A model generated the notes under the pieces. It ran no database searches and had not been told where the DNA came from. It saw only the letters and a program-made list of their open reading frames with translations. Of a stretch of DNA of 64,000 bases, positions 1 through 63,561 are shown in pieces (position 1 is the first letter of the stretch; each line of letters opens with the position of its first letter). This DNA is from a phage. Both the position numbers and the translations under genes were made by a program. The stretch is from sequence record PZ379177.1; one strand, written 5' to 3'.

Positions 1-1578
1 CGGCGGCGGCGGTACGCCGTCCAATCGGCTAACGTTCCATGAGCGTCTGATGCCGTCAGTCTCTGCAATCAATGTTGCGTTTCCTGGGTACGGGTAGCCG
101 CCGATTGAACCAGAGTACGCAAGTGATGACCCAGGCTGCATGAATGACTCGCCCACCATGCCATTTCTTGTCGTCAACGGACCGTTTGCGCAAGAAATGT
201 TGTTGAGCGTTCCCGCCGTTACAGACAGTATTGCTGTTCCGTCAGAAGGAGGGTTTTGCGTTCCATAAAAATAAGGCTCAGGTCCATTTGGATTCTGAAC
301 AGGGTCGCAGACGCAAATCGAGTATCCAAAAAGAAGTGCATCAGACCCTTCAGGCAATTCACGAGTTTGAGTTGATCCAGCGGCAGTCGCCTTCAACTCT
401 ATTGAAAAGCTGGTACTTACTCCAGAAGCAGCGGTTGCCGTCTGCTCTACAATCCAGATTCGATACCAATCGCCGCCAATTGCTTTTATGCCACCACGGT
501 TTGATTCCCTTCTTACTCCATCGAATTTGCCTTTGATGAAATAGCTCAATGACGGGTCCAAGTTGAACTGGCCAGTGACGGGGTCAAACAGCTTTCCATT
601 ACTCGATGCATCACTATTCTCTGTAACAGAAACAGAAGCGACGTTTTCAGAAAGCACCTTTATGTAGAAGCTATAGCAAACGTTGACGCCAGCCTGCGAA
701 GGAAGCGAAATTGATTTGGCACTTGGATTATTGGCCAAAGAATACACAGGCTCACCGCTTGAAGCCGTCTTGATGACCCTTACTGCGTTGGCAAAATTCT
801 CTATGGCCTCGCCTGGGTAATCACCACACAACTGCCCATAGTAATCAGGCCCACCATACTGTCTGGTGTCGCCGCCGACAAGCCCTGTGCCGGAACCATT
901 TCCCCATGAGTACCAATCTGGGTGCGCCATCCGTGACACGGTGCCTGACACTCCGCTGATGGCCAGTCCGGCGTTGTTGCCATGGCTTAAAAGTATCTGC
1001 TTATAATCATGCTGAATCTCAGTTGACCCTTGCCAGTCGTACAGAAGGAATGAGCCATTGGTTGATTCAGACGAAGACACCGCGCCTTGAGTATTGTCGG
1101 TCACATATGCGTAGCGTGATGAAGAGTAATCCCAAGCCTCTCCACGGTTGAAAATCCACTTAAGCATGCGGTTGATACTTTCGATGCGGCCATCACTTGT
1201 AAGCGTCAGATAACGAAGCTTAAGAAGTATGCGCGCTTCTTCGATATTCTTTACAACCTTCCCGCCAGCACCAAAGAAGTTGCCGCCGATGTTGTCCGCA
1301 CCTTCAAAGTTGTCGCGCGTCGGTCCAAACGCCCAGTTGTGCTCATAATTGCTTAAGTCCACAAAGTCTCTTGGTATGCAAAGAATGTCGCACCAAATAT
1401 AAATGCCCATTGCATCACAAGTGTCAATGTTAAAAATGTTATTGTACCAGTCAGTCCAAAACTGATCTTGGTATCTTTCATACCAGTCACTTTTCTTTTG
1501 CACCAAAGATGCGATGTTTGGCGCATTGTTCTGCATCCACTTAAGGTTTTGCAACAGGTTTGTGTCAAACTTTTGCAT
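1..1578 (-). CDS. Tail fibre / host-specificity-like structural protein, partial (ATG at 1578-1576; 3' end runs off the window start)
   Basis: Hand translation of the minus frame from 1578 to 1 gives 526 codons with no stop (MQKFDTNLLQNLKWMQNNAPNIASLV...). GAGGAA RBS-like sequence just upstream, directly after the stop of the 423-aa gene. Gly/Ser/Thr-rich and last in the tail gene string. Not in the ORF track because it is truncated. Confidence 0.55.
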   Translation of the reverse strand, partial: MQKFDTNLLQNLKWMQNNAPNIASLVQKKSDWYERYQDQFWTDWYNNIFNIDTCDAMGIYIWCDILCIPRDFVDLSNYEHNWAFGPTRDNFEGADNIGGNFFGAGGKVVKNIEEARILLKLRYLTLTSDGRIESINRMLKWIFNRGEAWDYSSSRYAYVTDNTQGAVSSSESTNGSFLLYDWQGSTEIQHDYKQILLSHGNNAGLAISGVSGTVSRMAHPDWYSWGNGSGTGLVGGDTRQYGGPDYYGQLCGDYPGEAIENFANAVRVIKTASSGEPVYSLANNPSAKSISLPSQAGVNVCYSFYIKVLSENVASVSVTENSDASSNGKLFDPVTGQFNLDPSLSYFIKGKFDGVRRESNRGGIKAIGGDWYRIWIVEQTATAASGVSTSFSIELKATAAGSTQTRELPEGSDALLFGYSICVCDPVQNPNGPEPYFYGTQNPPSDGTAILSVTAGTLNNISCANGPLTTRNGMVGESFMQPGSSLAYSGSIGGYPYPGNATLIAETDGIRRSWNVSRLDGVPPPP

Positions 1579-1584
1579 AGTTCC

Positions 1585-2856
1585 TCACACAAATTTAACG
1601 TTGATGAAGCCGCGCATAGTATTAGCCTTATCCCAAGGATTGGCAATCCACTCGCTGCCGTAATCGGATGGATAATTTGGCGCTGCCTGTCCGCTTTTAA
1701 CTGCTGCAATTTTGCAATCTTTAATGTACAGACCTGGATACTCGCAAGATACTGCTGAAGCAATCTCAAAAGAAGATTGAGATTGGCCTACTGCATATCC
1801 TTGCTCGCCGTTAAAATTTCCATTACCGTAATTCAACACAGCGGCAATAATAGATTCGGCATCGGCGGTTGCGGTGCCTCTTACAACAGTAATATCGACA
1901 TACAAGTCATATATGACAGCAGTGTTGAACTTTACGAAATAAGACAGTTGTGATTCTTCGTCGACAACTTCTATTCCATCAGGAGAGTTGACTGGATTGC
2001 CCTGGTTGGCAGCACCAAAGTCCCACGGCTGGCCGCCCATTTTCGCTTTGAAAATAGTCTCAGCAAAAACTTGCTTATCGAAAGTTCCGCTTGCGCACAC
2101 CCAAACACCGTTAGGCGTTGAAAAGGTGATGCCGCGTACCGTTCCAGGCAATCCCGTGTCGTTCTCCACGACCATCACAGATTCCACGCCGTCGACCGAC
2201 ATGGCGCGAGCGCGAATGGCACCAAGCGATGCAATGCCCTGCTGGTAAAGACGCTTAACGCGAGCGGCCTTTAATGCTCCGTCGCCCATGTATTGCGCTC
2301 CTGGCACAGTCGTCGTTGCTGATGTTGAATACGTTCTTGACCATCCGATGACGTCATAACCTTGCACCACTGTAAACTCTTCATCAGGTGCAACAGTAAA
2401 TGAGCCATACTCTTTTGATGCAAGAGTCATATTGCTTGTCTTGCCAGTCGAAGTGATTTGAACGTCTTCCAAAACATACCAGTATGTGCCATTTGAATCC
2501 GTCAGCAAACTTCCAGCAGGAATCTCCAACAGCGGCGTTCCTTCTGCGGTAATTCCTTTTAGCATCGTGCTGATGTTTTTAGTTCGCTCAATCCCAAGCA
2601 ATGCCGCGATGGCATCAAGGTATACGCCATACGAATAATTTGGGTTGATGAGACTTCCCAGCTCGGCGTTGTTCTTCATCACTGAAGTTCTTGCCAAAGT
2701 CTCCGTTGCGATTAGGGTGCCTTGCGGTGTCGAGGCATCAACGTCAAGCCCGACCCCTAATGACTCAATCCATTCACTTTGAACGTCAGCCAGCAAATCG
2801 GCTGTGTCGATGGTTATTACACCAGTGCTTACTATGTAAGAATATTGTGCACTCAT
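1585..2856 (-). CDS. Tail/baseplate structural protein (possibly baseplate J-like)
   Basis: 423-aa ORF between the spike-like gene and the fibre-like gene; its start overlaps the upstream stop. Function inferred from position only. Confidence 0.5.
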   Translation of the reverse strand: MSAQYSYIVSTGVITIDTADLLADVQSEWIESLGVGLDVDASTPQGTLIATETLARTSVMKNNAELGSLINPNYSYGVYLDAIAALLGIERTKNISTMLKGITAEGTPLLEIPAGSLLTDSNGTYWYVLEDVQITSTGKTSNMTLASKEYGSFTVAPDEEFTVVQGYDVIGWSRTYSTSATTTVPGAQYMGDGALKAARVKRLYQQGIASLGAIRARAMSVDGVESVMVVENDTGLPGTVRGITFSTPNGVWVCASGTFDKQVFAETIFKAKMGGQPWDFGAANQGNPVNSPDGIEVVDEESQLSYFVKFNTAVIYDLYVDITVVRGTATADAESIIAAVLNYGNGNFNGEQGYAVGQSQSSFEIASAVSCEYPGLYIKDCKIAAVKSGQAAPNYPSDYGSEWIANPWDKANTMRGFINVKFV

Positions 2857-3605
2857 TCTATCATATCCCCAGTTCTGTTTCCAGGTCCGTTACCTATGTG
2901 ACCGTGAGTGGATACATTTGTGCCGCCGATTGTTGTGCCAGTCGGAAGCGTTGCCGTCGTTCCTTCTTTCCCTTCTATACCACCATTGAACGTTGCCTTT
3001 CCATTAACTATCAATTGTTGGTCGATAGTGGTTATTGGTGTTTTCACATTTACTCCAGCCGATGCAGTTATGTTTATCGAGTCATCACTTAATGCGATGC
3101 GGACAGCTCCGCTGAGTGACTGGATTACCATTGAGCCTGCATCCTCTCCGCTTATGGTGTATTTTCGAAATACATCCGGTATGAACAGTCCATCAGCGAA
3201 AGTTTTCGCGCGACCATTGGTAGGCGCGGTCGGCTTCAATTCTTCAAGGAATGTCGACAACTCGCGGTCGCCAGCGAATATCCAGCCCAAATCACCTTCT
3301 TTCAAAGGAAAGTTGATTACAAAGCCGCCGCCGCCGATTGCTAATACAGGAATTGACACCAGGGGTTGACGCTCCACTGGTTTATCATCAAGACTTACGA
3401 AATGAATAACAGGCTTTATGACTGCTAAATTCTGTTTGCGGTCATAAGATATTACTTGTGCAGGAATCATGCCGTCAGTGGTATACTTGCCACGGTCCAG
3501 CATTCCCTGCAGCGCGGCAAACATACTTGATTTGTCAGTTTGGTTGGGGCTTGTAAGTTGGGTTAACTTTTCTGCCATCATAGACTCCTTATATCTGATC
3601 AACAA
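2853..3605 (-). CDS. Baseplate central spike-like protein (gpV-like)
   Basis: 250 aa. Gly-rich beta region (AIGGGGFVINFPLKEGDLGW) and a C-terminal His-rich tip (GGTNVSTHGHIGNGPG), as in metal-binding spike apex domains. Position downstream of the tape measure gene. Confidence 0.55.
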   Translation of the reverse strand: MLIRYKESMMAEKLTQLTSPNQTDKSSMFAALQGMLDRGKYTTDGMIPAQVISYDRKQNLAVIKPVIHFVSLDDKPVERQPLVSIPVLAIGGGGFVINFPLKEGDLGWIFAGDRELSTFLEELKPTAPTNGRAKTFADGLFIPDVFRKYTISGEDAGSMVIQSLSGAVRIALSDDSINITASAGVNVKTPITTIDQQLIVNGKATFNGGIEGKEGTTATLPTGTTIGGTNVSTHGHIGNGPGNRTGDMIE

Positions 3606-28971: not shown

Positions 28972-28996
28972 GGCGCTGAAAAGCGCCTTTACTTTA
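28972..28996 (+). terminator. Putative rho-independent terminator after the tail fibre gene
   Basis: Hairpin GGCGCT-GAAA-AGCGCC followed by a T-rich tract. Confidence 0.45.
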
Positions 28997-29043
28997 TGCT
29001 CGATTAAGTTATACTCATTATACGTTAACAAGTGAGGTGGTTC

Positions 29044-29747: not shown

Positions 29748-29945
29748 GTGAATCAAAATGAATCAGTAGCATTCTTACAATGGCTGGAAGGTGTGGTGGA
29801 GTATTACGCTCCAAAAGACCGCTTCATCTTTCAAGGAAAAAGTTACAAGCGCAAAGGGCAGGCCCAGAAAGCAGCGCGTAAGTACTGGAAGGAAGTTTAT
29901 TCAGAGTTCTTTCAGCAGATGGGCAGCACAGTTGGTATCGATTGA
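29748..29945 (+). CDS. Hypothetical protein
   Basis: 65-aa ORF. Confidence 0.45.
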   Translation: MNQNESVAFLQWLEGVVEYYAPKDRFIFQGKSYKRKGQAQKAARKYWKEVYSEFFQQMGSTVGID

Positions 29946-30043
29946 TGAATGTTGATTTCGTGATGTTTTTGATCATATTGGCGATAAGTTCAGTATTTGT
30001 TGTCGCTATGATCGCGCTTATTGATTGGTTGGATAAATAAATC
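29945..30043 (+). CDS. Small hydrophobic peptide (32 aa)
   Basis: ATG overlaps the upstream stop (TGATG); product MNVDFVMFLIILAISSVFVVAMIALIDWLDK. Below the track cutoff. Confidence 0.3.
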
Positions 30044-30749
30044 GTGGTTTTGGTGATTTTGGTGATTTAACCGTGAATCGTGGGTCGCTGTGGCGGCCCT
30101 TTCTTTTGCCTGCCGCGCAGGAGTGTACTGCAAATTTACTGTGGGCACAAAATAGTACGGTACTGTCCAGGACTTTTTCTTTGAAAAGTTAGTGGACCAA
30201 ATGTGTCGTATTTTGATTAGTGTACTGCAAATTCCATCAAGTAGCAAAACGCACCAAAAGACCCATGCCATAAAAACCACACGAACGCAATAATCAATCG
30301 CCGTTACAGTTTCCAGCGTTACAATTCGAAAGCGAATGATTCGATGCATAATAATATGAAGCATAATGATTCGAAAGCTAATGATTGCGTGTAGGATAAT
30401 ATCGGTGGGGATTATTCTAGATGCATGTAATTTCGCATGCGTACTATTTTCGGACGAAGGGTCGGCATATTCCTCGTTTTAGTTCGGAACGAAGGGAAAG
30501 TTTTGCGCCTTTATAAAACAATGACTTACGCGACCCGCCCTAACGGTCCGATATAGGTGTCTATATAAAACAAGGACTTACGCGATGTTCTCCATTTAAC
30601 GTAATACCCGTTATGCGAACTAAGGCGCATCTCGACGAAGATTATGCGACGACGAAGGGAAGGATAAAGGAGTTTTCGCGGAGAAGCGCATCGAGATAGG
30701 GACGAAGAAAAGCCGCGACTAAGCGCGGCCTATTAGTAACGGAAGGGTA
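30040..30749. repeat. Long non-coding repeat-rich region
   Basis: No credible ORF. Contains tandem TGGTGATTT x2, GTGTACTGCAAAT at about 30124 and 30221, AATGATTCGAAAGC-like x2, ACGAAGG x4, and TATAAAACAA(T/G)GACTTACGCGA twice (30510-30535, 30561-30587). Confidence 0.6.
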
Positions 30750-31040
30750 TTATAAGGAAACGATTTTAAAGAAAGAGTAACGGCCTTCGCCTTCGGATAC
30801 CGCGAGATATTCGCCGCCGAACTCCGTAGCAAAATAAACCTTGCCTTCGATAGTAACGCGGAAGGTAGAAATATCTTCCTCTTCGAGTTCCGTAAATTCG
30901 CTAAAATCGATAGGACTATGAAGCTCCTCGATAGTCGCATCTACGTTAAAGAGATAAACGTTTTTAAGTTTTTCGCCAAATACGTTAGAGTTTTCGGAAG
31001 TTTCGGCGCGAGCGTTACGGATAGCGGCTAAAGTAATCAT
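30750..31040 (-). CDS. Small acidic early protein B (96 aa)
   Basis: Preceded by the conserved leader ...CCCAACTAGGAGATTATTATG and promoter cassette B. Acidic product. Leu codons TTA/CTC/CTT; TG/CA dinucleotides depleted. Confidence 0.55.
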   Translation of the reverse strand: MITLAAIRNARAETSENSNVFGEKLKNVYLFNVDATIEELHSPIDFSEFTELEEEDISTFRVTIEGKVYFATEFGGEYLAVSEGEGRYSFFKIVSL

Positions 31041-31099
31041 AATAATCTCCTAGTTGGGTCGGGAGGGTAGCGACCTATTCGCTACCTCATCCCCTCTCG

Positions 31100-31137
31100 A
31101 TATAAAACATTATAGTCTTAGTGTACGAAGAAGTAAA
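31100..31137 (-). promoter_or_regulatory. Sigma70-like promoter, cassette B
   Basis: In gene sense: TTTACT - 17 nt - TATAAT, followed by TTTTATATCGAGAGGGG, a stem-loop (GTAGCGAATAGGTCGCTAC) and the conserved RBS. Confidence 0.55.
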
Positions 31138-31148
31138 GCACTTTTTCA

Positions 31149-31451
31149 TTATTCTGCGATAAAATATTTATAAGCTTTATCGCCTTCTACGTCGATATAC
31201 TCGACGATAATTAACGCTTCGCCGCGAGGCGTAACCGTCTCGATAAGGGTAACGGCTTCGTCGTCGGTCTTCGCGAAGCGGATGGCGCTACGTTCGGCAT
31301 ACTTCATATCGTCGAAGGAAAGGCCGATGAAGGCGACCGCGCGGACCTTAATGGCGCTAGATTCTAGTTCCGCGTTAACGGCGGCGATAAGAGAGCGAAC
31401 AGTTAAGCGGTCTTCGTCGTAAGTAAGGATGGAAGAGATTAAAGTAGTCAT
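31149..31451 (-). CDS. Small acidic early protein C (100 aa)
   Basis: Track ORF 31149-31508 trimmed to ATG 31451 (MTTLISSIL...), which follows the conserved GGGAGCTTTATTATG leader; preceded by promoter cassette C. Confidence 0.55.
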   Translation of the reverse strand: MTTLISSILTYDEDRLTVRSLIAAVNAELESSAIKVRAVAFIGLSFDDMKYAERSAIRFAKTDDEAVTLIETVTPRGEALIIVEYIDVEGDKAYKYFIAE

Positions 31452-31497
31452 AATAAAGCTCCCGATGCTAGTAGAAGAAAGGGCCATCGCCCGTCTC

Positions 31498-31535
31498 GAT
31501 ATAAACAAGTATACGCGAGTGTACGAAGAAGTAAA
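31498..31535 (-). promoter_or_regulatory. Sigma70-like promoter, cassette C
   Basis: In gene sense: TTTACT - 16 nt - TATACT, followed by TGTTTATATCGAGACGGG. Confidence 0.5.
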
Positions 31536-31579
31536 GAAAAAAGATAAAATAATTTATCGCATTTTTATCTAAAAAGTGC

Positions 31580-31615
31580 TTTACTTTTTTCTACACTATA
31601 TTATAATGTACTCAT
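31580..31615 (+). promoter_or_regulatory. Sigma70-like promoter, cassette A
   Basis: TTTACT (31580-31585) - 16 nt - TATAAT (31602-31607), followed by CTCATATCGGGACGGG, stem-loop GTTAACGAATAGGTCGTTAAC and CCCAACTAGGAGTTTATTATG. Confidence 0.55.
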
Positions 31616-31675
31616 ATCGGGACGGGATGAGTTAACGAATAGGTCGTTAACGCCTCTCCCAACTAGGAGTTTATT

Positions 31676-31990
31676 ATGGCTATCGTTACCCGCTTTACCC
31701 TCGAAAACGCAACCGCCGAAGTCCAGGGCGTTACGCTTACTTACGGCGAAATTCTCGCTAAATTCTCCGGCGTTCGCTTAGGCGAAGAAATTAACGACGC
31801 GACGGTAATCGAGCAACTCGCTGCTTCTCGCTTAGAGCGCGACGAAAACGGATTCTTCGAAGTCGATGCGGAATTAAATTTATGCGGTAAAACGGCGTTT
31901 ATTAACGAGTTCGAACTCGCCGTTTTAGTTAATTACGATAGCAAAGCTTACGCCTTCGCCCTCGAATTAATCGAAGACGACGAAGAGTAA
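31676..31990 (+). CDS. Small strongly acidic early protein A (104 aa), DNA-mimic-like candidate
   Basis: First gene after promoter cassette A. Product has many Glu/Asp and ends ELIEDDEE. No CTG or TTG Leu codons. Confidence 0.55.
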   Translation: MAIVTRFTLENATAEVQGVTLTYGEILAKFSGVRLGEEINDATVIEQLAASRLERDENGFFEVDAELNLCGKTAFINEFELAVLVNYDSKAYAFALELIEDDEE

Positions 31991-32070
31991 GAGAGGATTT
32001 TTAGAGCGTCGTGCGCGGCGCTTTAATAAAATTCTTTCGCGCCTAGCGCCCTAACAAATAGGAGTTTATT

Positions 32071-32697
32071 ATGGTTAGCTTAAATCGCTTTTCTACTAGC
32101 GGCGACGTTATCGCAACTAAGACCGCCGACCTCGTTGCATTCTATAATGCAAATTCCGGCTCAAAACCGATTAAGAAGTTTGCGGACCGCCGGACCGCCG
32201 AGACTCGCGTAATCGCGTTAATCGAGTCCTTAAACGCGCTCGATGCGCCGTCCAACGAGTCGCCCATCCCCGACGCGAAGGCGCGCGAGGAAGTGTCCAG
32301 CGATGTAAAAACTCATAAGGCGCGTGCGGTCGTTAAAAAGGCTGAGCCGACCCAGGAAGAACTCGACGCGATGACCGACGAAGAATATGAAGCCTTCGTT
32401 AAGAGCGGTTTAAATGATAGTGCAAATTGCGTAGTGCAAAATGGAACTCCTTCCCATCGCCGTTCGAATAGCGAAGGTATTGCAAAAAGCTGGGATAATA
32501 AGGAAGTGGCGCAAAAGCGTCTCACCCGTAACGGTGTCATGGTCGAGGGTGTAGGCGAGTTCAAATCGGTCCGCGTAGCGTTCGCTGCGCTGGGATTACC
32601 GGATAGCAAGCACATTCGCTTCCGCATGAAGCTTAAGGAAGCTGGGCGCTTGAACTTCGAGTTCGGCAACAAGTCCTACACCTTCCAGATTATCTAA
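32071..32697 (+). CDS. Hypothetical protein
   Basis: 208 aa; RBS context AATAGGAGTTTATTATG resembles cassette A. Contains two in-frame TAGTGCAAA repeat copies. Confidence 0.55.
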   Translation: MVSLNRFSTSGDVIATKTADLVAFYNANSGSKPIKKFADRRTAETRVIALIESLNALDAPSNESPIPDAKAREEVSSDVKTHKARAVVKKAEPTQEELDAMTDEEYEAFVKSGLNDSANCVVQNGTPSHRRSNSEGIAKSWDNKEVAQKRLTRNGVMVEGVGEFKSVRVAFAALGLPDSKHIRFRMKLKEAGRLNFEFGNKSYTFQII

Positions 32698-32747
32698 TAG
32701 AATGGCGGCCCTTCGGGGTCGCTTTTCATAGTGCAAATTGGTGGCTT

Positions 32748-33011
32748 ATGAATACGCTCATTCTCATCGCTACGTTATCCATCGGAAGTGGTCGCACCTT
32801 ATCCCTTTACGACCATAGTGCAAATTGCGCTTATCCTACGCGCGTTGCGGCGATAGTTAATAGTGCAAATAAGATGCTATTCGAGACTTGCTGGCGGGTC
32901 GATAACGAGAAAGGTCGGGTAGTCTTAGGTTATAGTGCAAATCTGCTGGTGGAGTCGTTCGATTGGACGGTTGAAGGTCGTAAATTGTTACGGAAAGTGA
33001 CTAAAAGATGA
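32748..33011 (+). CDS. Hypothetical protein (iteron-encoded SAN repeats)
   Basis: 87-aa ORF. Three in-frame TAGTGCAAA copies give HSANC, NSANK and YSANL. Could be a reading frame imposed by the repeats rather than a functional protein. Confidence 0.4.
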   Translation: MNTLILIATLSIGSGRTLSLYDHSANCAYPTRVAAIVNSANKMLFETCWRVDNEKGRVVLGYSANLLVESFDWTVEGRKLLRKVTKR

Positions 33012-33125
33012 CTTATAATAATACACTTTCTAACGCGTTTATGGTTGTAACCTTCCCCGTCGTATTACCGATGGCCCTAGAAGTGGAGAAAATGTGTTCT
33101 AGGGCCGTTTTATAGTGCAAATTGG

Positions 33126-33614
33126 CTAGTGGCGGGAGAATTGCTCACCTTCTTTGGCCGCCTCTCCAAAATCCTTGTAGAAATCGTCCATGGAACGGCC
33201 CATTTTACTATTGCCGTTTTCATCAATCATCGTGATGCCGTAGATGATATTCAGTTCACGAATAGCATTAAGTTTGGCTGACGCCGCGACTTCTGGATCA
33301 CGCACAAGCTTGACCAAATTGTGAATTGCACCTTTTACGCTCCACAAATCCTTGAGTGGCATCTCTTCCATACGCTTTTTGAAGCGCATCTTGTAGTATG
33401 GATTGCGTTGCGCGCAAAGGATTCGCTGGCCAGTGTAGTTATCCGTTGCAACTTCCATTCCAAATACTAGTGCAAAAGCTGCGCGCATGTCATGGCCCTG
33501 AATAACAAGGTCAATGAACTCATCGAATAAAGCCTGATTGTGCTCTGCAAATCGCGGGTCTTCAAAGTCTTCAGGCATCGCTACATAATCTTGACTCATA
33601 GTGCAAAATCCCAT
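33126..33614 (-). CDS. Hypothetical protein, possible helix-turn-helix DNA-binding protein
   Basis: 162-aa ORF whose start codon lies within an iteron copy (reverse complement TTTGCACTATG). A small-terminase-like role is speculative. Confidence 0.45.
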   Translation of the reverse strand: MGFCTMSQDYVAMPEDFEDPRFAEHNQALFDEFIDLVIQGHDMRAAFALVFGMEVATDNYTGQRILCAQRNPYYKMRFKKRMEEMPLKDLWSVKGAIHNLVKLVRDPEVAASAKLNAIRELNIIYGITMIDENGNSKMGRSMDDFYKDFGEAAKEGEQFSRH

Positions 33615-33699
33615 AGTGCAAATTAATAGTGTGAATTATACAATGGATGGACATTATATTCAAGTGCAGATTGATGTTCATTATGGCTATAAACGTACA

Positions 33700-34110
33700 C
33701 AAATCATAGTGCTGAATGGATAACGGACCGTGGTGCGTGGTGTACTGTTTGATACGGATAAAAGAAATCCATCCCTTTCGCCGCTTGTTATGCAAATCAA
33801 TGACTTAGCCGCTGCTGGCTGGTTTAAGCGTATCATGACGTATCATCCGTATTGCCGCAAGTCTTTGTTTTTACTTATATCTTACGGATAATACGTTAAA
33901 TATATAAATTAACATAAGTATGAGGATGTAGAAAAAAAATTAATTTAAATTAATTCAAAATGGAGTTAATTAATTTTTGAAATAATTCTGGTTACAATAA
34001 GGAAAAATGGCGTATCATCCGTATCATCCGTAAGATTCAGTGTACAAATCCAGGCGCGGCGCACCCTAGCGCCATGATACGGATAAAAACCTATCCGTAA
34101 GAGTGTACGC
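33700..34110. repeat. TACGGAT-family repeat module, copy 2
   Basis: About 8 direct and inverted copies of GATACGGAT/ATCCGTATC flanking an AT-rich core (GAAAAAAAATTAATTTAAATTAATTC...). Shares the exact 29-mer CGTATCATCCGTATCATCCGTAAGATTC with the module at 18.2 kb. Confidence 0.75.
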
Positions 34111-34415
34111 TTCAATTAAAGAATCCAGGCGCGGCGCGGCTTTCACCACCACACACCACGGTTCACTCTCCAAAATCCGCACACTAAATTCCAAAATCCA
34201 ATGCTCATACTCCAAAAATAAATCCAAATTTCCATTTTATTTATTATTTTCATCCACAATATACTAAATTCTATCCGTATTAACCACGACTCAACCCACC
34301 ACGATTCATGCCAATCACTTCAAAATTTCCATCGAAAACGACAAAAGGCCGCGTAAAGCGACCAATTGCACACATTCCATTATTCAAAACACGTAAACGA
34401 GTGTTCTTTTATCCA

Positions 34416-34955
34416 CTATAATTTAGGCATCAATCCCTTTTCCGTTCTCCTTTTTATCTCGTCTTCTATCATTTTATTGGTCACTCTATAGCCAATCCTT
34501 TCCAATTCCATTAATACTTCCTTTTGGTATTTTCTTATTTTCACAATGTCAACCGTATCCCTCCAATAAGATAATACCTTCTTAATGACTGACTTTTCCA
34601 TTTTATATCTGGCGGTAGTCATATACTTCATTTTAAAAATAGAGTTGATCGCATCAGTCTTTAACCATTCCTTTCTTAATTCAGGATGATCATTCCAAAG
34701 AGTAATGGCGAACTCCTGCGGACTTTTGCACCTGCTTTGAAGCTCCTTTATATAGTCAGCCGTTTTTACTTTTCTATCTAAACGCGCGCGGCAAACGGTG
34801 CACTCTTCCTTGAGCAACCAATCGGCCTTCTTATCAATTTGCAAAGTTGAATTGCCATCCCTTTTATACCTGCCGCAAAAGCTTATGCCTTCATCTTTTA
34901 AGAAGTAATGCAACTCTTTAGAGTATTTCGCTTTACGCCAAAAGCCTCCCATCAC
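34416..34955 (-). CDS. Hypothetical early protein
   Basis: 179-aa ORF; Cys-containing, basic. Confidence 0.5.
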   Translation of the reverse strand: MMGGFWRKAKYSKELHYFLKDEGISFCGRYKRDGNSTLQIDKKADWLLKEECTVCRARLDRKVKTADYIKELQSRCKSPQEFAITLWNDHPELRKEWLKTDAINSIFKMKYMTTARYKMEKSVIKKVLSYWRDTVDIVKIRKYQKEVLMELERIGYRVTNKMIEDEIKRRTEKGLMPKL

Positions 34956-35521
34956 CCCTCCTTAACTACCCGATAAGCAACAACGTCCCAAGCTTCTCCG
35001 TGGTGATCCCAATGCAAAACACTCGAGTGAATTTGATCATTGCCACGTTCGCCGTTACGCATTTTGAATTCAACCATTTCCCCAGGCACCGGATTATCGC
35101 CACCAAACCACACGGTCCACGCTTCCTCCTTCGGCGCATCAGAATCCACGCCTATAGTAGCAACGACGTCATGCAACTGCTTAACGAGCGCCGACGCATC
35201 ACGGACTTGTGAGCGTAATGCAACCAACTCGCGTTGCACTTCACTGTATTTCGCTTCCAGCGCGGCATAATCAGCAAACTTCACATATGAACCAGAGGTG
35301 TCATCACCCTCTGTATTGAGCCATGCATCATTGCAGTTTACTGCATACGTTTTAACTTCACCGCATTTCGGCTCAAGCGCGACGCGACTTTTTACTTCAC
35401 TGTATTTCGCTTCCAGCGCGGCATAGTCCTCATATTCAACATAGCCGCCTTCATCATCCTTTACAACTTCGCATGTGCAAGCGTGCTGCGTGCAATAATC
35501 AACATCATAACGTTGTATCAT
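34952..35521 (-). CDS. Hypothetical early protein with internal tandem duplication
   Basis: 189 aa; contains YEDYAALEAKYSEVK and FADYAALEAKYSEVQ, encoded by a 30-bp exact DNA repeat. Confidence 0.5.
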   Translation of the reverse strand: MIQRYDVDYCTQHACTCEVVKDDEGGYVEYEDYAALEAKYSEVKSRVALEPKCGEVKTYAVNCNDAWLNTEGDDTSGSYVKFADYAALEAKYSEVQRELVALRSQVRDASALVKQLHDVVATIGVDSDAPKEEAWTVWFGGDNPVPGEMVEFKMRNGERGNDQIHSSVLHWDHHGEAWDVVAYRVVKEG

Positions 35522-63497: not shown

Positions 63498-63561
63498 GCG
63501 TATTTACTTTCAAAACCTTGAGCCTATACTATTAATATTCATAATCAAAAGGTGAATTATA

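What the first reader, a model, noticed from the sequence alone, without database searches (positions are those of the whole stretch)
30400..32100. Three near-identical strong promoter/leader cassettes driving three small acidic proteins with anomalous codon usage
Seen in sequence: three copies of a roughly 95-bp module, one rightward (31566-31675) and two leftward (31041-31150 and 31452-31560). Each has TTTACT, a 16-17 nt spacer, TATAAT or TATACT, then ATATCG(A/G)GA(C/G)GGG, a stem-loop, and CCCAACTAGGAG(A/T)TTATTATG ending at the start codon. Each drives a roughly 100-aa acidic ORF; protein A ends ELIEDDEE. The genes never use CTG for Leu, and TG/CA dinucleotides are several-fold depleted while CG/TA are enriched, unlike the rest of the window. 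Established knowledge: phage T7 expresses the acidic DNA mimic Ocr first, from tandem strong host promoters. Inference: an immediate-early host-takeover or anti-restriction module, possibly of different evolutionary origin.
Basis: partly seen in the sequence, partly recalled or inferred. Interest (0 to 1): 0.85.

Follow-up and report, generated by a model that had tools for sequence, protein, structure and literature searches.

The report
CA/TG-free early-gene island at phage end
About 200 bp from one physical end of this E. coli phage genome lies a 1.7-kb block of strongly promoted early genes whose DNA has lost nearly all CA/TG dinucleotides and GATC sites; two other phage genera share this, and it points to an unidentified pressure on the first DNA to enter the cell.

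Summary
The window is a Wifcevirus, an E. coli myovirus of about 68 kb. Three sigma-70-type promoters (TTTACT-N16/17-TATAAT or TATACT), each with a 5' leader, drive three unrelated ~100-aa acidic proteins.

The surrounding 1.7 kb (30440-32100) has a CA/TG odds ratio of 0.27, against 1.18±0.08 elsewhere (z = -10.9). CG and TA, the products of single transitions from CA/TG, are raised.

New findings:
- The island starts 180 bp inside the 3.7-kb direct terminal repeat, so it lies next to a physical DNA end.
- Myosmarvirus (Serratia) and Kylevirus (Pantoea) have an equivalent island in the same place, with mostly unrelated genes.
- Homologues or paralogues of the island genes that sit elsewhere have normal composition. 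The bias therefore belongs to the locus, not to gene ancestry.
- GATC is also purged in all three islands.
- One leader hairpin (loop CGAAUAGGUCG) covaries across genera.

Best reading: this is an immediate-early module on the leading DNA, under DNA-level selection to avoid some target. The agent is unknown, and generic restriction-site avoidance does not explain it. An anti-restriction role for the proteins is plausible, because published work shows unexplained restriction resistance. There is no homology or fold evidence for it. A foreign origin is not supported.

The parts
30257..33963 (.). Direct terminal repeat (DTR) of the virion DNA. Position 30257 corresponds to a physical genome end. 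The outer boundary (~33963) is approximate.
   Evidence: The two ends of WFH (MK373776) share 3701 identical bp, and the boundaries map to window 30256|30257 and ~33961-33966. PhageTerm predicts a 3673-bp DTR at the same place in phage Mansfield.
30440..32100 (.). Island depleted of CA/TG and free of GATC. It continues more weakly to ~33000.
   Evidence: rho(CA/TG) 0.27, CG 2.09, TA 1.25. GATC: 0 sites against 7.0 expected. Conserved in 11 Wifcevirus genomes, where CA+TG makes up 2.9-4.3% of positions.
30257..30709 (.). Terminal stretch with no confirmed gene. From ~30440 it is purged of CA/TG and carries at least 5 ACGAAG(G/A) repeats on the + strand. A 39-aa ORF lies at 30437-30556 (+).
   Evidence: The 30457-30750 part is 96-99% conserved among 11 genomes, more than gene C. 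No RNA-folding signal. ORF list; the ORF is annotated as a CDS in Mansfield.
30710..30731 (-). Intrinsic-terminator-like hairpin downstream of gene C.
   Evidence: Annotated as a terminator in WFH and WFC.
30750..31040 (-). Gene C, 96 aa, acidic (pI 4.40). It diverges fastest among isolates, down to 61% identity.
31041..31103 (-). 5' leader of gene C. Begins AUAUCGAGAGGGG, has its hairpin apex at 31066-31086 (GGUAGCGAAUAGGUCGCUACC), and ends CCCAACUAGGAGAUUAUUAUG.
31109..31137 (-). Promoter PC: TTTACT-N17-TATAAT.
31149..31451 (-). Gene B, 100 aa, acidic (pI 4.55). At least 80% identical in all Wifcevirus genomes. Remote homologues occur in other phages.
31452..31502 (-). 5' leader of gene B. 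It has the same first 13 nt as the other leaders but a different short GC hairpin.
31508..31535 (-). Promoter PB: TTTACT-N16-TATACT.
31580..31607 (+). Promoter PA: TTTACT-N16-TATAAT. It is divergent from PB.
31614..31675 (+). 5' leader of gene A. The conserved hairpin is at 31631-31651 (GUUAACGAAUAGGUCGUUAAC), followed by the Shine-Dalgarno sequence UAGGAG.
31676..31990 (+). Gene A, 104 aa, pI 4.07, ends ELIEDDEE. This slot is swappable: other isolates carry a different 94-aa gene here, or none.
32071..32697 (+). 208-aa basic protein (phrog_4730), on the decaying edge of the island (8.3% CA+TG). It is the conserved first early gene across related genera.
33126..33614 (-). Terminase small subunit gene, inside the DTR. 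Listed for context only; it is not part of the island.
   Evidence: Annotated in Mansfield, whose annotators report an HHpred match. phrog_4783.

Best explanation
This is the immediate-early expression module of a Wifcevirus. It sits on the DNA nearest a physical genome end, inside the direct terminal repeat.

Proposed mechanism:
- Host sigma-70 RNA polymerase starts at three strong promoters.
- The transcripts carry a shared 5' start (AUAUCGRGA) followed by a GC-rich hairpin. In two of the three, the hairpin has the conserved apex CGAAUAGGUCG.
- The transcripts express small acidic proteins from interchangeable promoter-leader-gene slots.

The whole ~1.7-kb block, coding and non-coding, has been purged of CA/TG, mostly by single transitions to CG or TA. 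It has also been purged of GATC. I read this as DNA-level selection for target avoidance. On this view, the piece of the genome that must work before any phage countermeasure exists has lost the sequences that some DNA-targeting activity needs. The island's own products (A, B, C and the phrog_4730 protein) then protect the rest of the genome or take over the host.

What is shown: the position, the promoters, leader covariation, the composition, its conservation, and its independence from gene ancestry.
What is inferred: early timing, selection rather than mutation, the DNA level of selection, the anti-defence role of the proteins, and the identity of the avoided agent, which is unknown.
For: Position.
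- The island begins 180 bp from the inner DTR boundary, which is a virion DNA end.
- MyoSmar has the same layout: DTR 1-3559, island 200-1900, promoters at 255 and 855 pointing inward.
- Kyle has it too: DTR 3603 bp, island at record positions 1606-3406.

Composition.
- z = -10.9.
- Depletion is similar on both strands and in all codon phases, and His, Gln, Cys and Trp are nearly absent.
- The stretch at 30440-30709, downstream of the gene C terminator, is equally depleted.
- From the odds ratios, I estimate that gains in CG and TA account for about 80% of the lost CA/TG.

The bias belongs to the locus, not the genes.
- B has 3.0% CA+TG, against 12.0% in its homologue P0038.
- The SMP island copy has 2.8%, against 13.2% in the paralogue elsewhere in the same genome.
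- The orthologue in the island-less Salmonella phage PCSE1 has 15.1%.

Maintenance.
- All 11 Wifcevirus genomes keep 2.9-4.3% CA+TG, although protein C has diverged to 61% identity and cargo has been swapped.
- Transversions that create CA/TG are 6-fold rarer than neutral transversions.
- 65% of CA/TG-creating alleles are singletons, against 41% of neutral ones.

A second purged motif. GATC sites observed/expected are 0/7.0, 1/6.3 and 0/8.1 in the three islands.

Phenotype link.
- Wifcevirus phages resist EcoKI, EcoCFT_I, EcoRI, EcoRV and EcoCFT_II, but are very sensitive to EcoP1_I.
- I inferred the EcoCFT_II site as CACAG from published site counts.
- This window's DTR has 0 CACAG where ~5 are expected, and no sites for the other four resisted systems, though for those four fewer than one site is expected by chance. 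It has 5 AGACC in both orientations.

Leader.
- The 8-bp stem is 98.8% paired, against 21-56% in the slid controls.
- 4 pairs show changes on both sides.
- G-U pairs occur only in the sense orientation.
Against: - No transcript, timing or DNA-entry data exist for these phages. Which end enters first is unknown.
- Generic restriction avoidance does not predict CA/TG. GA/TC (46%) and AG/CT (43%) occur in more recognition sequences than CA/TG (37%).
- Recognition sites that lack CA/TG are not avoided in the island: 171 of 390 are absent, against 194±9.6 in controls. Other 4-mer palindromes lacking CA/TG are at expected levels.
- Bas99, Bas101 and two other isolates carry one EcoKI site in the island, yet Bas99 and Bas101 resist EcoKI.
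- Transitions that create CA/TG segregate at nearly the neutral rate, 0.069 against 0.078. Selection per site is therefore weak.
- The related Salmonella phage PCSE1 uses the same promoter family with no island anywhere in its genome.
- T5's first-step-transfer DNA, T7 and lambda show no such bias.
- The proteins have no detectable homology or confident fold.
Confidence: 0.45

Rival explanations
1. Self-immunity. An early phage function, such as a nuclease or DNA-damaging or DNA-binding shut-off factor, acts on DNA containing CA/TG (and perhaps methylated GATC) and so destroys or silences the host chromosome. The island is the one part of the incoming genome that must survive while this factor is active. 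The rest of the genome would be protected by delayed entry, as in T5 two-step transfer, or by later inactivation of the factor.
For: - The island is sharply bounded and lies at the genome end in three genera.
- The rest of the genome has normal or high CA/TG (1.18), as expected if only the island is exposed.
- The BASEL paper cites an earlier report of extremely fast replication in Wifcevirus.
- The T5 record annotates its terminal repeat as first-step-transfer DNA that enters the cell first, and its A1 protein as involved in host DNA degradation.
Against: - No nuclease or DNA-modification gene is annotated in the first 50 kb of the Bas101 genome, apart from the polymerase exonuclease subunit.
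- No two-step transfer is known for these myoviruses.
- T5's first-step-transfer DNA shows no CA/TG bias.
- It needs an extra assumption to spare the other 64 kb.
Confidence: 0.15
2. RNA-level selection. The early mRNAs avoid UG and CA (and GAUC) to escape a host or phage endoribonuclease or RNA-binding factor, or to prevent internal starts, since all bacterial start codons end in UG. The DNA symmetry would arise because genes lie on both strands.
For: - The island coincides with the units driven by the three promoters.
- In SMP and MyoSmar it covers exactly the early operon.
- The leaders are RNA-structured.
- Almost no NUG codons remain besides the true starts.
Against: - Within each gene, both CA and UG are depleted to a similar degree on the sense strand.
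- The purge continues ~270-300 nt past the terminators, into sequence that is probably untranscribed, in both Wifcevirus and SMP.
- The palindromic DNA site GATC is co-purged.
- To my knowledge, no E. coli RNase is known to have UG or CA dinucleotide specificity.
Confidence: 0.1
3. A mutational footprint rather than selection. A context-specific transition process acts on this terminal, repeated, heavily transcribed DNA. Examples would be a deaminase, or a process like fungal repeat-induced point mutation (RIP).
For: - All the losses are what single transitions would produce: CA/TG to CG or TA.
- The region is duplicated (DTR) and contains internal repeats.
- Fungal RIP depletes CpA/TpG in repeats (abstract of PMC2621366, listed).
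- Transitions that create CA/TG are not strongly counter-selected.
Against: - It needs four different context-dependent transitions at once, including A-to-G and T-to-C. RIP gives only C-to-T, with no CG gain and with AT enrichment. Here GC content is unchanged at 44.8% against ~46%.
- Only half of the DTR is affected.
- Proteins stay intact and conserved while avoiding His, Gln, Cys and Trp.
- GATC loss is not explained.
- The same state is held in three genera and in all isolates.
Confidence: 0.08
4. Positive selection for CG- and TA-rich words rather than against CA/TG. Candidates are the ACGAAG(G/A) or TCGATA motifs, which might bind a phage or host protein across the island.
For: - CGAAG/CTTCG exceeds its dinucleotide-based expectation in all three islands: 24/8.1, 16/7.7 and 24/7.6. 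CGATA is also enriched.
- At least five ACGAAG(G/A) lie in the conserved terminal stretch at 30440-30709.
Against: - Much of the CGAAG excess follows from Asp/Glu-rich coding under the CA/TG ban (my inference).
- All eight CA/TG trinucleotides are lost evenly. That is the signature of removing a dinucleotide, not of gaining a word.
Confidence: 0.07
5. Foreign origin. The module was acquired from a donor with this composition.
For: - The composition differs sharply from the rest of the genome.
- Cargo genes are swappable.
Against: - Homologues and paralogues of island genes outside islands have normal composition.
- The island occupies the same terminal position in three genera with mostly different cargo.
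- None of the comparison sequences examined here reaches rho(CA/TG) ~0.25.
Confidence: 0.03

Closest known systems
Phage T5 first-step-transfer (pre-early) region
   Same: - It lies in a long direct terminal repeat and, per the T5 record, is the first DNA to enter.
- It encodes small pre-early proteins from host-type promoters.
[quoted passage not shown] By my recollection of the older T5 literature, its early-entering DNA also lacks EcoRI sites.
   Different: - T5's first-step-transfer DNA has normal CA/TG (0.94).
- Two-step transfer and an injection stop signal are not known here.
- A, B and C match no PHROG family.
- Here the DTR is 3.7 kb and the host phage is a myovirus.
Phage T7 early region (A1-A3 promoters, gene 0.3 Ocr)
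   Same: - A cluster of strong host promoters lies within ~0.5-1.3 kb of the genome end, in front of small acidic early proteins.
- By my recollection of the literature (McClelland 1985), T7 also strongly avoids GATC.
   Different: - T7 has no CA/TG island (minimum rho 0.89).
- Two of the three promoters here point toward the DNA end.
- There is no sequence similarity to any solved structure. By my knowledge, the PDB includes Ocr.
- The models are of low confidence and are not all-helical.
Restriction-site avoidance in phage genomes
   Same: - Specific short DNA words are removed by selection. GATC is avoided genome-wide here (0.44 of expected) and almost completely in the island.
- CACAG is absent from the DTR.
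   Different: - The unit removed is a dinucleotide, so amino-acid usage is bent as well.
- The purge is confined to 1.7 kb.
- Recognition sites that lack CA/TG are not avoided.
- CA/TG is not the dinucleotide most common in recognition sites.
Dinucleotide-level immune evasion in eukaryotic RNA viruses (CpG and UpA suppression)
   Same: In concept, the composition of a whole sequence is shaped by a sensor or nuclease with dinucleotide specificity. This comparison rests on my own knowledge.
   Different: - The pattern is the opposite: here CG and TA are enriched and CA/TG is lost.
- It is local rather than genome-wide.
- It occurs in a DNA phage.
- No bacterial sensor with such specificity is known.
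Fungal repeat-induced point mutation (RIP)
   Same: CpA/TpG depletion with TpA gain, in duplicated DNA (abstract of PMC2621366).
   Different: - RIP inactivates genes, lowers GC content and does not raise CpG.
- Here the genes are intact, GC content is unchanged and CpG is doubled.

Membership tests
Sigma-70-dependent early promoters | -35 and -10 hexamers close to consensus, spaced 16-18 bp apart | tested here: met
   TTTACT-N16/17-TATAAT or TATACT, scoring 9-10 of 12. 5 matches in the window against 0.02 expected.
Sigma-70-dependent early promoters | Transcription start mapped downstream of the -10 element, active in the first minutes of infection | not testable with these tools
   No transcript data for Wifcevirus were found in the paper searches I ran. 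In the related Pbunavirus 14-1, host sigma-70-like promoters were validated experimentally.
Ocr/ArdA-type DNA-mimic anti-restriction proteins | Sequence similarity to Ocr, ArdA or other known mimics | tested here: not met
   No Pfam, PHROG, PADLOC or PDB-sequence match for A, B or C.
Ocr/ArdA-type DNA-mimic anti-restriction proteins | A fold that displays a DNA-like array of negative charge | tested here: inconclusive
   AlphaFold pLDDT is 64 for C (mostly beta) and 51 for B. A was not modelled. Foldseek on the C model found nothing at E < 1.
Ocr/ArdA-type DNA-mimic anti-restriction proteins | Strong net negative charge | tested here: met
   pI 4.07, 4.55 and 4.40. Acidic minus basic residues: 15, 7 and 10. 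This is moderate, and many early phage proteins are equally acidic.
Ocr/ArdA-type DNA-mimic anti-restriction proteins | Inhibits type I RM enzymes | not testable with these tools
   Only whole-phage resistance is published.
T5-like first-step-transfer region | Located in the terminal repeat at the leading DNA end | tested here: met
   DTR of 3701 bp. The island lies 180-1850 bp from one end. Which end leads was not tested.
T5-like first-step-transfer region | No sites for the restriction enzymes the phage resists | tested here: inconclusive
   This window's DTR has 0 sites for EcoRI, EcoRV, EcoKI, the EcoAI-type site and CACAG, but 5 AGACC. Only CACAG is statistically informative (~5 expected). 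Bas99 and Bas101 have one EcoKI site in the island.
T5-like first-step-transfer region | Two-step DNA transfer with an injection stop signal and A1/A2-type proteins | not testable with these tools
   No entry data exist. A, B and C match no PHROG family.
Restriction-site avoidance | Recognition sequences in general are under-represented relative to composition | tested here: not met
   Sites lacking CA/TG are not avoided: 171 of 390 absent, against 194±9.6 in controls. Apart from GATC, 4-mer palindromes lacking CA/TG are near their expected counts, except CCGG in the Wifcevirus island and CTAG in Kyle.
Repeat-induced point mutation-like process | C-to-T at CpA only, giving AT enrichment and gene inactivation | tested here: not met
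   CG is doubled, GC content is unchanged and the ORFs are intact and conserved.
Described RNA families (Rfam) | Match of the leader hairpin to a curated covariance model | tested here: not met
   No Rfam hit at E <= 1 in 29800-33200.

The most novel reading that the evidence does not exclude
The island is the negative imprint of a DNA-targeting activity that has not been described and that has dinucleotide-scale specificity for CA/TG, with a separate or linked sensitivity to GATC. It could be a widespread enterobacterial immune function that strikes the first phage DNA to enter. Or it could be a phage-borne destroyer of host DNA from which the phage shields only its immediate-early genes. In either case, a few phage genera have answered it by rewriting 1.7 kb of DNA, including protein composition, to contain almost none of the target.
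Probability: 0.35. Interest if true: 0.95.

Novelty: new variant of a known kind. Interest (0 to 1): 0.85.

Why it matters
- A published puzzle becomes directly testable. Wifcevirus phages resist five RM systems with no known protection mechanism, yet are killed by EcoP1I. The sequence data predict which sites matter: AGACC inside the terminal repeat, against CACAG, which is absent from it.
- The finding shows that selection on the leading end of a phage genome can be strong enough to override codon usage and amino-acid choice. No such local dinucleotide purge turned up in the T5, T7, lambda or PCSE1 sequences I checked, nor in my literature search.
- If the avoided agent is a new nuclease or sensor, it is a new piece of phage-host conflict.
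- The island also offers practical parts: compact strong promoters, a structured leader, and a 'stealth' recoding rule.
- Wifcevirus relatives (Pbunavirus) are among the Pseudomonas phages most used for personalised therapy.

Tried and rejected
- Rfam search of 29800-33200: no hit.
- Pfam, PHROGs, PADLOC and PDB-sequence searches of A, B and C: nothing.
- Word-indexed homologue searches: A, B and C were found only on Wifcevirus-sized contigs.
- Exhaustive profile search with B: two remote homologues. One was informative for composition but not for function.
- AlphaFold on C and B: low confidence. The Foldseek search of PDB with the C model was meaningless.
- A, B and C as paralogues: only A against C is faintly suggestive (E = 0.12). 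B is unrelated.
- SMP island proteins as homologues of A, B or C: none.
- Generic restriction-site avoidance as the driver: rejected.
- T5 first-step-transfer DNA, T7 and lambda as carriers of the same bias: none.
- Foreign origin: rejected.
- Structured RNA in the conserved terminal stretch: no folding signal on either strand.
- IMG/VR scan for the leader hairpin: true hits only in Wifcevirus and Myosmarvirus; the rest were chance matches.
- Literature search for CA/TG depletion in phage early regions: nothing relevant.
- The TTTACT -35 element as a consequence of the purge: not tenable. The same hexamer is used at 28988 and 63503 outside the island, and in the island-less phage PCSE1.

Full report
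**What the window is.** The 5 kb around the finding is 92-95% identical to E. coli and Shigella myoviruses of the genus Wifcevirus (WFH, WFC, ECML-117, BASEL phages Bas98-101). In all deposited records the genes of the finding are 'hypothetical protein'.

- A consensus scan finds TTTACT-N16-TATAAT at 31580-31607 (+), TTTACT-N17-TATAAT at 31137-31109 (-) and TTTACT-N16-TATACT at 31535-31508 (-).
- The pattern occurs five times in the 64-kb window against 0.02 expected. The other two copies (28988, 63503) lie outside the finding.
- The leader start ATATCGRGASGGG occurs exactly three times, against none expected.
- The rightward cassette (PA) and the 31041-31150 cassette (PC) align along their whole length. 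The third (PB) shares the promoter, the first 13 leader bases and the TTTATTATG start context, but has a shorter, different hairpin. 'Three near-identical' is therefore slightly generous.
- The ORFs are A (31676-31990, 104 aa, pI 4.07, ends ELIEDDEE), B (31149-31451, minus strand, 100 aa, pI 4.55) and C (30750-31040, minus strand, 96 aa, pI 4.40).
- They are not detectably related to each other, apart from a weak A-C hint at E = 0.12.
- Alignments of their homologues show protein-like conservation without frameshifts.

**The compositional anomaly is extreme.**
- The symmetrised odds ratio for CA/TG is 0.21-0.36 between 30500 and 32000, against 1.14 for the window. CG is about 2.0-2.3 and TA 1.1-1.4, against 0.68.
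- In 1-kb windows, the rest of the window gives 1.18±0.08 with a minimum of 0.94. The island is at 0.27, z = -10.9. T7 and lambda never fall below 0.89 and 0.98.
- All eight trinucleotides containing CA or TG are depleted, from CAG/CTG at 0.09 to ATG/CAT at 0.55. The dinucleotide is therefore the unit.
- The depletion is similar for CA and TG on the sense strand of each gene and appears in all three codon phases. It removes CTG, TTG, GTG, TCA and ACA codons and leaves almost no His, Gln, Cys or Trp.
- It continues through ~270 bp beyond the gene C terminator.
- From the odds ratios, I estimate that the gain in CG and TA accounts for about four-fifths of the lost CA/TG. This is the pattern expected if each CA/TG was removed by one transition.

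**Where it sits.**
- The two ends of the WFH record share 3701 identical bases. The inner boundary of this direct terminal repeat maps to window 30256|30257 and the outer one to about 33963.
- PhageTerm independently predicted a 3673-bp repeat at the same place in phage Mansfield. Its annotators also identified the 33126-33614 gene as the small terminase subunit.
- The island therefore begins 180 bp from a physical end of the virion DNA. Because the repeat is at both ends, the island lies within the first 3.5 kb whichever end enters first.

**Conservation and modularity within the genus.**
- All ten other Wifcevirus loci examined have the three cassettes and the island.
- CA+TG makes up 2.9-4.3% of positions in every genome, against about 14% expected.
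- PA drives different cargo in different isolates: protein A, an unrelated 94-aa protein, or the 208-aa gene directly. Some isolates have extra small ORFs.
- Protein C has diverged to 61% identity while B stays at or above 80%.
- Among polymorphisms, transversions that create CA/TG are six-fold rarer than neutral transversions. 65% of CA/TG-creating alleles are singletons, against 41% of neutral ones.
- However, transitions that create CA/TG occur at nearly the neutral rate. This fits many weakly selected sites rather than a few strongly selected ones.

**The same thing occurs in other genera.** The 208-aa protein (phrog_4730) has homologues in Pbunavirus and in phages of Serratia, Erwinia, Pantoea, Salmonella, Aeromonas and others.
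- Serratia phage SMP has a 1.7-kb island with rho 0.1-0.4.
  - It has a TTTACT-N17-TATAAT promoter.
  - A second promoter has a leader hairpin, CGGGCGAAUAGGUCGCCCG, that shares its apex with the Wifcevirus PA and PC hairpins.
  - It carries three genes: a phrog_4730 paralogue and two acidic proteins with no detectable similarity to A, B or C.
- In the related phage MyoSmar, the PhageTerm repeat is 1-3559 and the island occupies 200-1900, with promoters at 255 and 855 pointing inward.
- Pantoea phage Kyle has a 3603-bp repeat. Its island lies at record positions 1606-3406, again ending 200 bp from the repeat boundary. It has four TTTACT-N17-TATAAT promoters in divergent pairs.
- Other phages lack an island:
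  - Salmonella phage PCSE1 uses the same promoter family but has none anywhere in its 69.9 kb (minimum 0.69).
  - The Pbunavirus JG024 locus shows only dips to 0.6-0.7.
  - The Aeromonas locus shows none.
  - T5's first-step-transfer DNA shows none.

**The bias belongs to the locus, not to the genes.**
- An exhaustive profile search found a B homologue (E = 2.7e-12) on a 141-kb phage contig. It sits behind a TTGACA-type promoter in DNA of normal composition, with 12.0% CA+TG against 3.0% in B.
- Within SMP, the island copy of the phrog_4730 family has 2.8% and the paralogue 4 kb away has 13.2%.
- Orthologues run from 15.1% (PCSE1) through 10.9% (JG024) to 8.3% (this window, at the island's edge).
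- This excludes a foreign origin as the explanation.

**A second purged word.** Given dinucleotide content, GATC should occur 7.0, 6.3 and 8.1 times in the three islands. It occurs 0, 1 and 0 times. Most other CA/TG-free 4-mer palindromes, including TCGA, TTAA, TATA, CGCG, GCGC and GGCC, are near their expected counts; the exceptions are CCGG in the Wifcevirus island and CTAG in Kyle. GATC is also moderately avoided in the rest of the Wifcevirus genome, at 0.44 of expected.

**The leader.**
- Eleven distinct leader sequences from PA, PC and the Myosmarvirus second promoter were aligned.
- The 8-bp stem is paired in 98.8% of cells, against 21-56% when the partner is slid.
- Four pairs show changes on both sides.
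- The three G-U pairs all occur in the transcribed orientation. This favours an RNA structure.
- Only three independent lineages contribute, so this is good evidence rather than overwhelming.
- An IMG/VR scan found the element only in these two genera.
- Its role is not known. It could stabilise the mRNA, control translation, or bind a protein.

**What drives the purge?** I tested the obvious idea, restriction avoidance.
- Of 617 distinct recognition sequences, 227 contain an obligatory CA/TG. The island lacks 186 of these, against 100±9 in control windows. For the 390 without CA/TG it lacks 171, against 194±10, so there is no general avoidance.
- CA/TG is only the fourth most common dinucleotide class in recognition sites.
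- Generic avoidance therefore does not predict this pattern.

There is still a suggestive link to phenotype.
[quoted passage not shown] They are very sensitive to EcoP1_I, although the two type III enzymes have similar numbers of sites.
- The EcoCFT_II site is not given in the text. I inferred it as CACAG, the only 5-mer with 81 sites in T7 and 83 in lambda, as tabulated.
- CACAG is absent from this window's repeat, where about 5 are expected, and from the islands of all 11 genomes. Three relatives have one copy elsewhere in the repeat.
- AGACC occurs five times in this window's repeat, in both orientations.
- The other four resisted enzymes also have no site in this window's repeat, but fewer than one site is expected by chance.
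- Bas99 and Bas101 carry one EcoKI site in the island.
- This is what a T5-like scheme would predict: a site-free leading segment whose products then protect the rest. In effect it rests on a single informative contrast.

**Most likely mechanism and rivals.** I favour DNA-level target avoidance by the immediate-early, leading-end module, with the agent unidentified (confidence 0.45). The rivals are:

| Rival | Confidence |
|---|---|
| Self-immunity against a phage function that attacks DNA containing CA/TG | 0.15 |
| RNA-level avoidance | 0.10 |
| A context-specific mutational process | 0.08 |
| Positive selection for CG/TA-rich words such as CGAAG | 0.07 |
| Foreign origin | 0.03 |

- RNA-level avoidance is weakened by the similar depletion of CA and UG on the sense strand, the purge beyond the terminators, and the loss of the palindrome GATC.
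- The mutational rival would need four different context-dependent transitions, leaves the proteins intact and does not explain GATC.
- CGAAG is enriched in all three islands.

**The proteins.** No database, profile or fold comparison places them. They are moderately acidic, but they are not demonstrably Ocr-like. The fast divergence of C and the swappable A slot fit proteins engaged with variable host targets. That is an inference.

**Verdict.** The finding is real, statistically overwhelming, conserved across three phage genera, and unexplained by anything I could find described. 'Anti-restriction' is plausible and now testable. 'Different evolutionary origin' is wrong.

Noticed in passing
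window 30126-33623 (+ strand): The 10-mer TAGTGCAAAT, allowing one mismatch, occurs 14 times in the window against 6.3 expected. Thirteen copies lie here, all on the + strand. They flank the island and overlap the 208-aa, 87-aa and small-terminase genes inside the terminal repeat. They may be terminase or regulator binding sites.
   Followed up: no
window 30457-30750: This terminal stretch, beyond the gene C terminator, is 96-99% conserved among 11 Wifcevirus genomes, more than gene C itself (84-89%). It holds at least five ACGAAG(G/A) repeats on the + strand and a 39-aa ORF (30437-30556) that is annotated as a CDS in phage Mansfield. Neither strand shows an RNA-folding signal.
   Followed up: partly
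window 28988-29015 (+) and 63503-63530 (+): Two further TTTACT-N16-TATACT promoter-like sites of the same type lie outside the island, in DNA of normal composition. The TTTACT -35 hexamer is therefore a lineage habit and not a by-product of the CA/TG purge.
   Followed up: partly
window 32071-32697; L014 10167-10670; L075 346-849; L078 5989-6525; L076 5992-6402: The phrog_4730 protein (208 aa here, basic, no known domain) is the conserved first gene behind a strong early promoter in Myosmarvirus, Kylevirus, Salmonella phage PCSE1, an Aeromonas phage and two Wifcevirus isolates. Homologues occur in ~300 Pbunavirus genomes. It may be the core immediate-early function of the whole group.
   Followed up: partly
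whole window: Several over-represented words were seen: GATACGGATGATAC-type (9-11 copies), the palindrome TTGTCGACAA (11 copies) and GCCGCGCTG (13 copies). Positions and roles were not examined.
   Followed up: no
window 30440-32100 compared with the rest: CTAG is strongly avoided in the genome (19 sites against 121 expected) but not in the Wifcevirus island (7 against 7.6). It is partly avoided in the MyoSmar island (3 against 6.3) and strongly in the Kyle island (1 against 6.7).
   Followed up: no
window 30140-35500: The stretch without CACAG/CTGTG extends beyond the terminal repeat, to past 35500. That is more than 5 kb, where the mean spacing is about 750 bp.
   Followed up: no
L076 2777-3274 (Salmonella phage PCSE1): The island-less relative carries an annotated methyltransferase in its early region. 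This could be an alternative protection strategy.
   Followed up: no
L017 1-10219 (phage T5 terminal repeat): T5's first-step-transfer DNA has a higher CpG odds ratio (1.31) than the following 10 kb (0.74), although CA/TG is normal.
   Followed up: no
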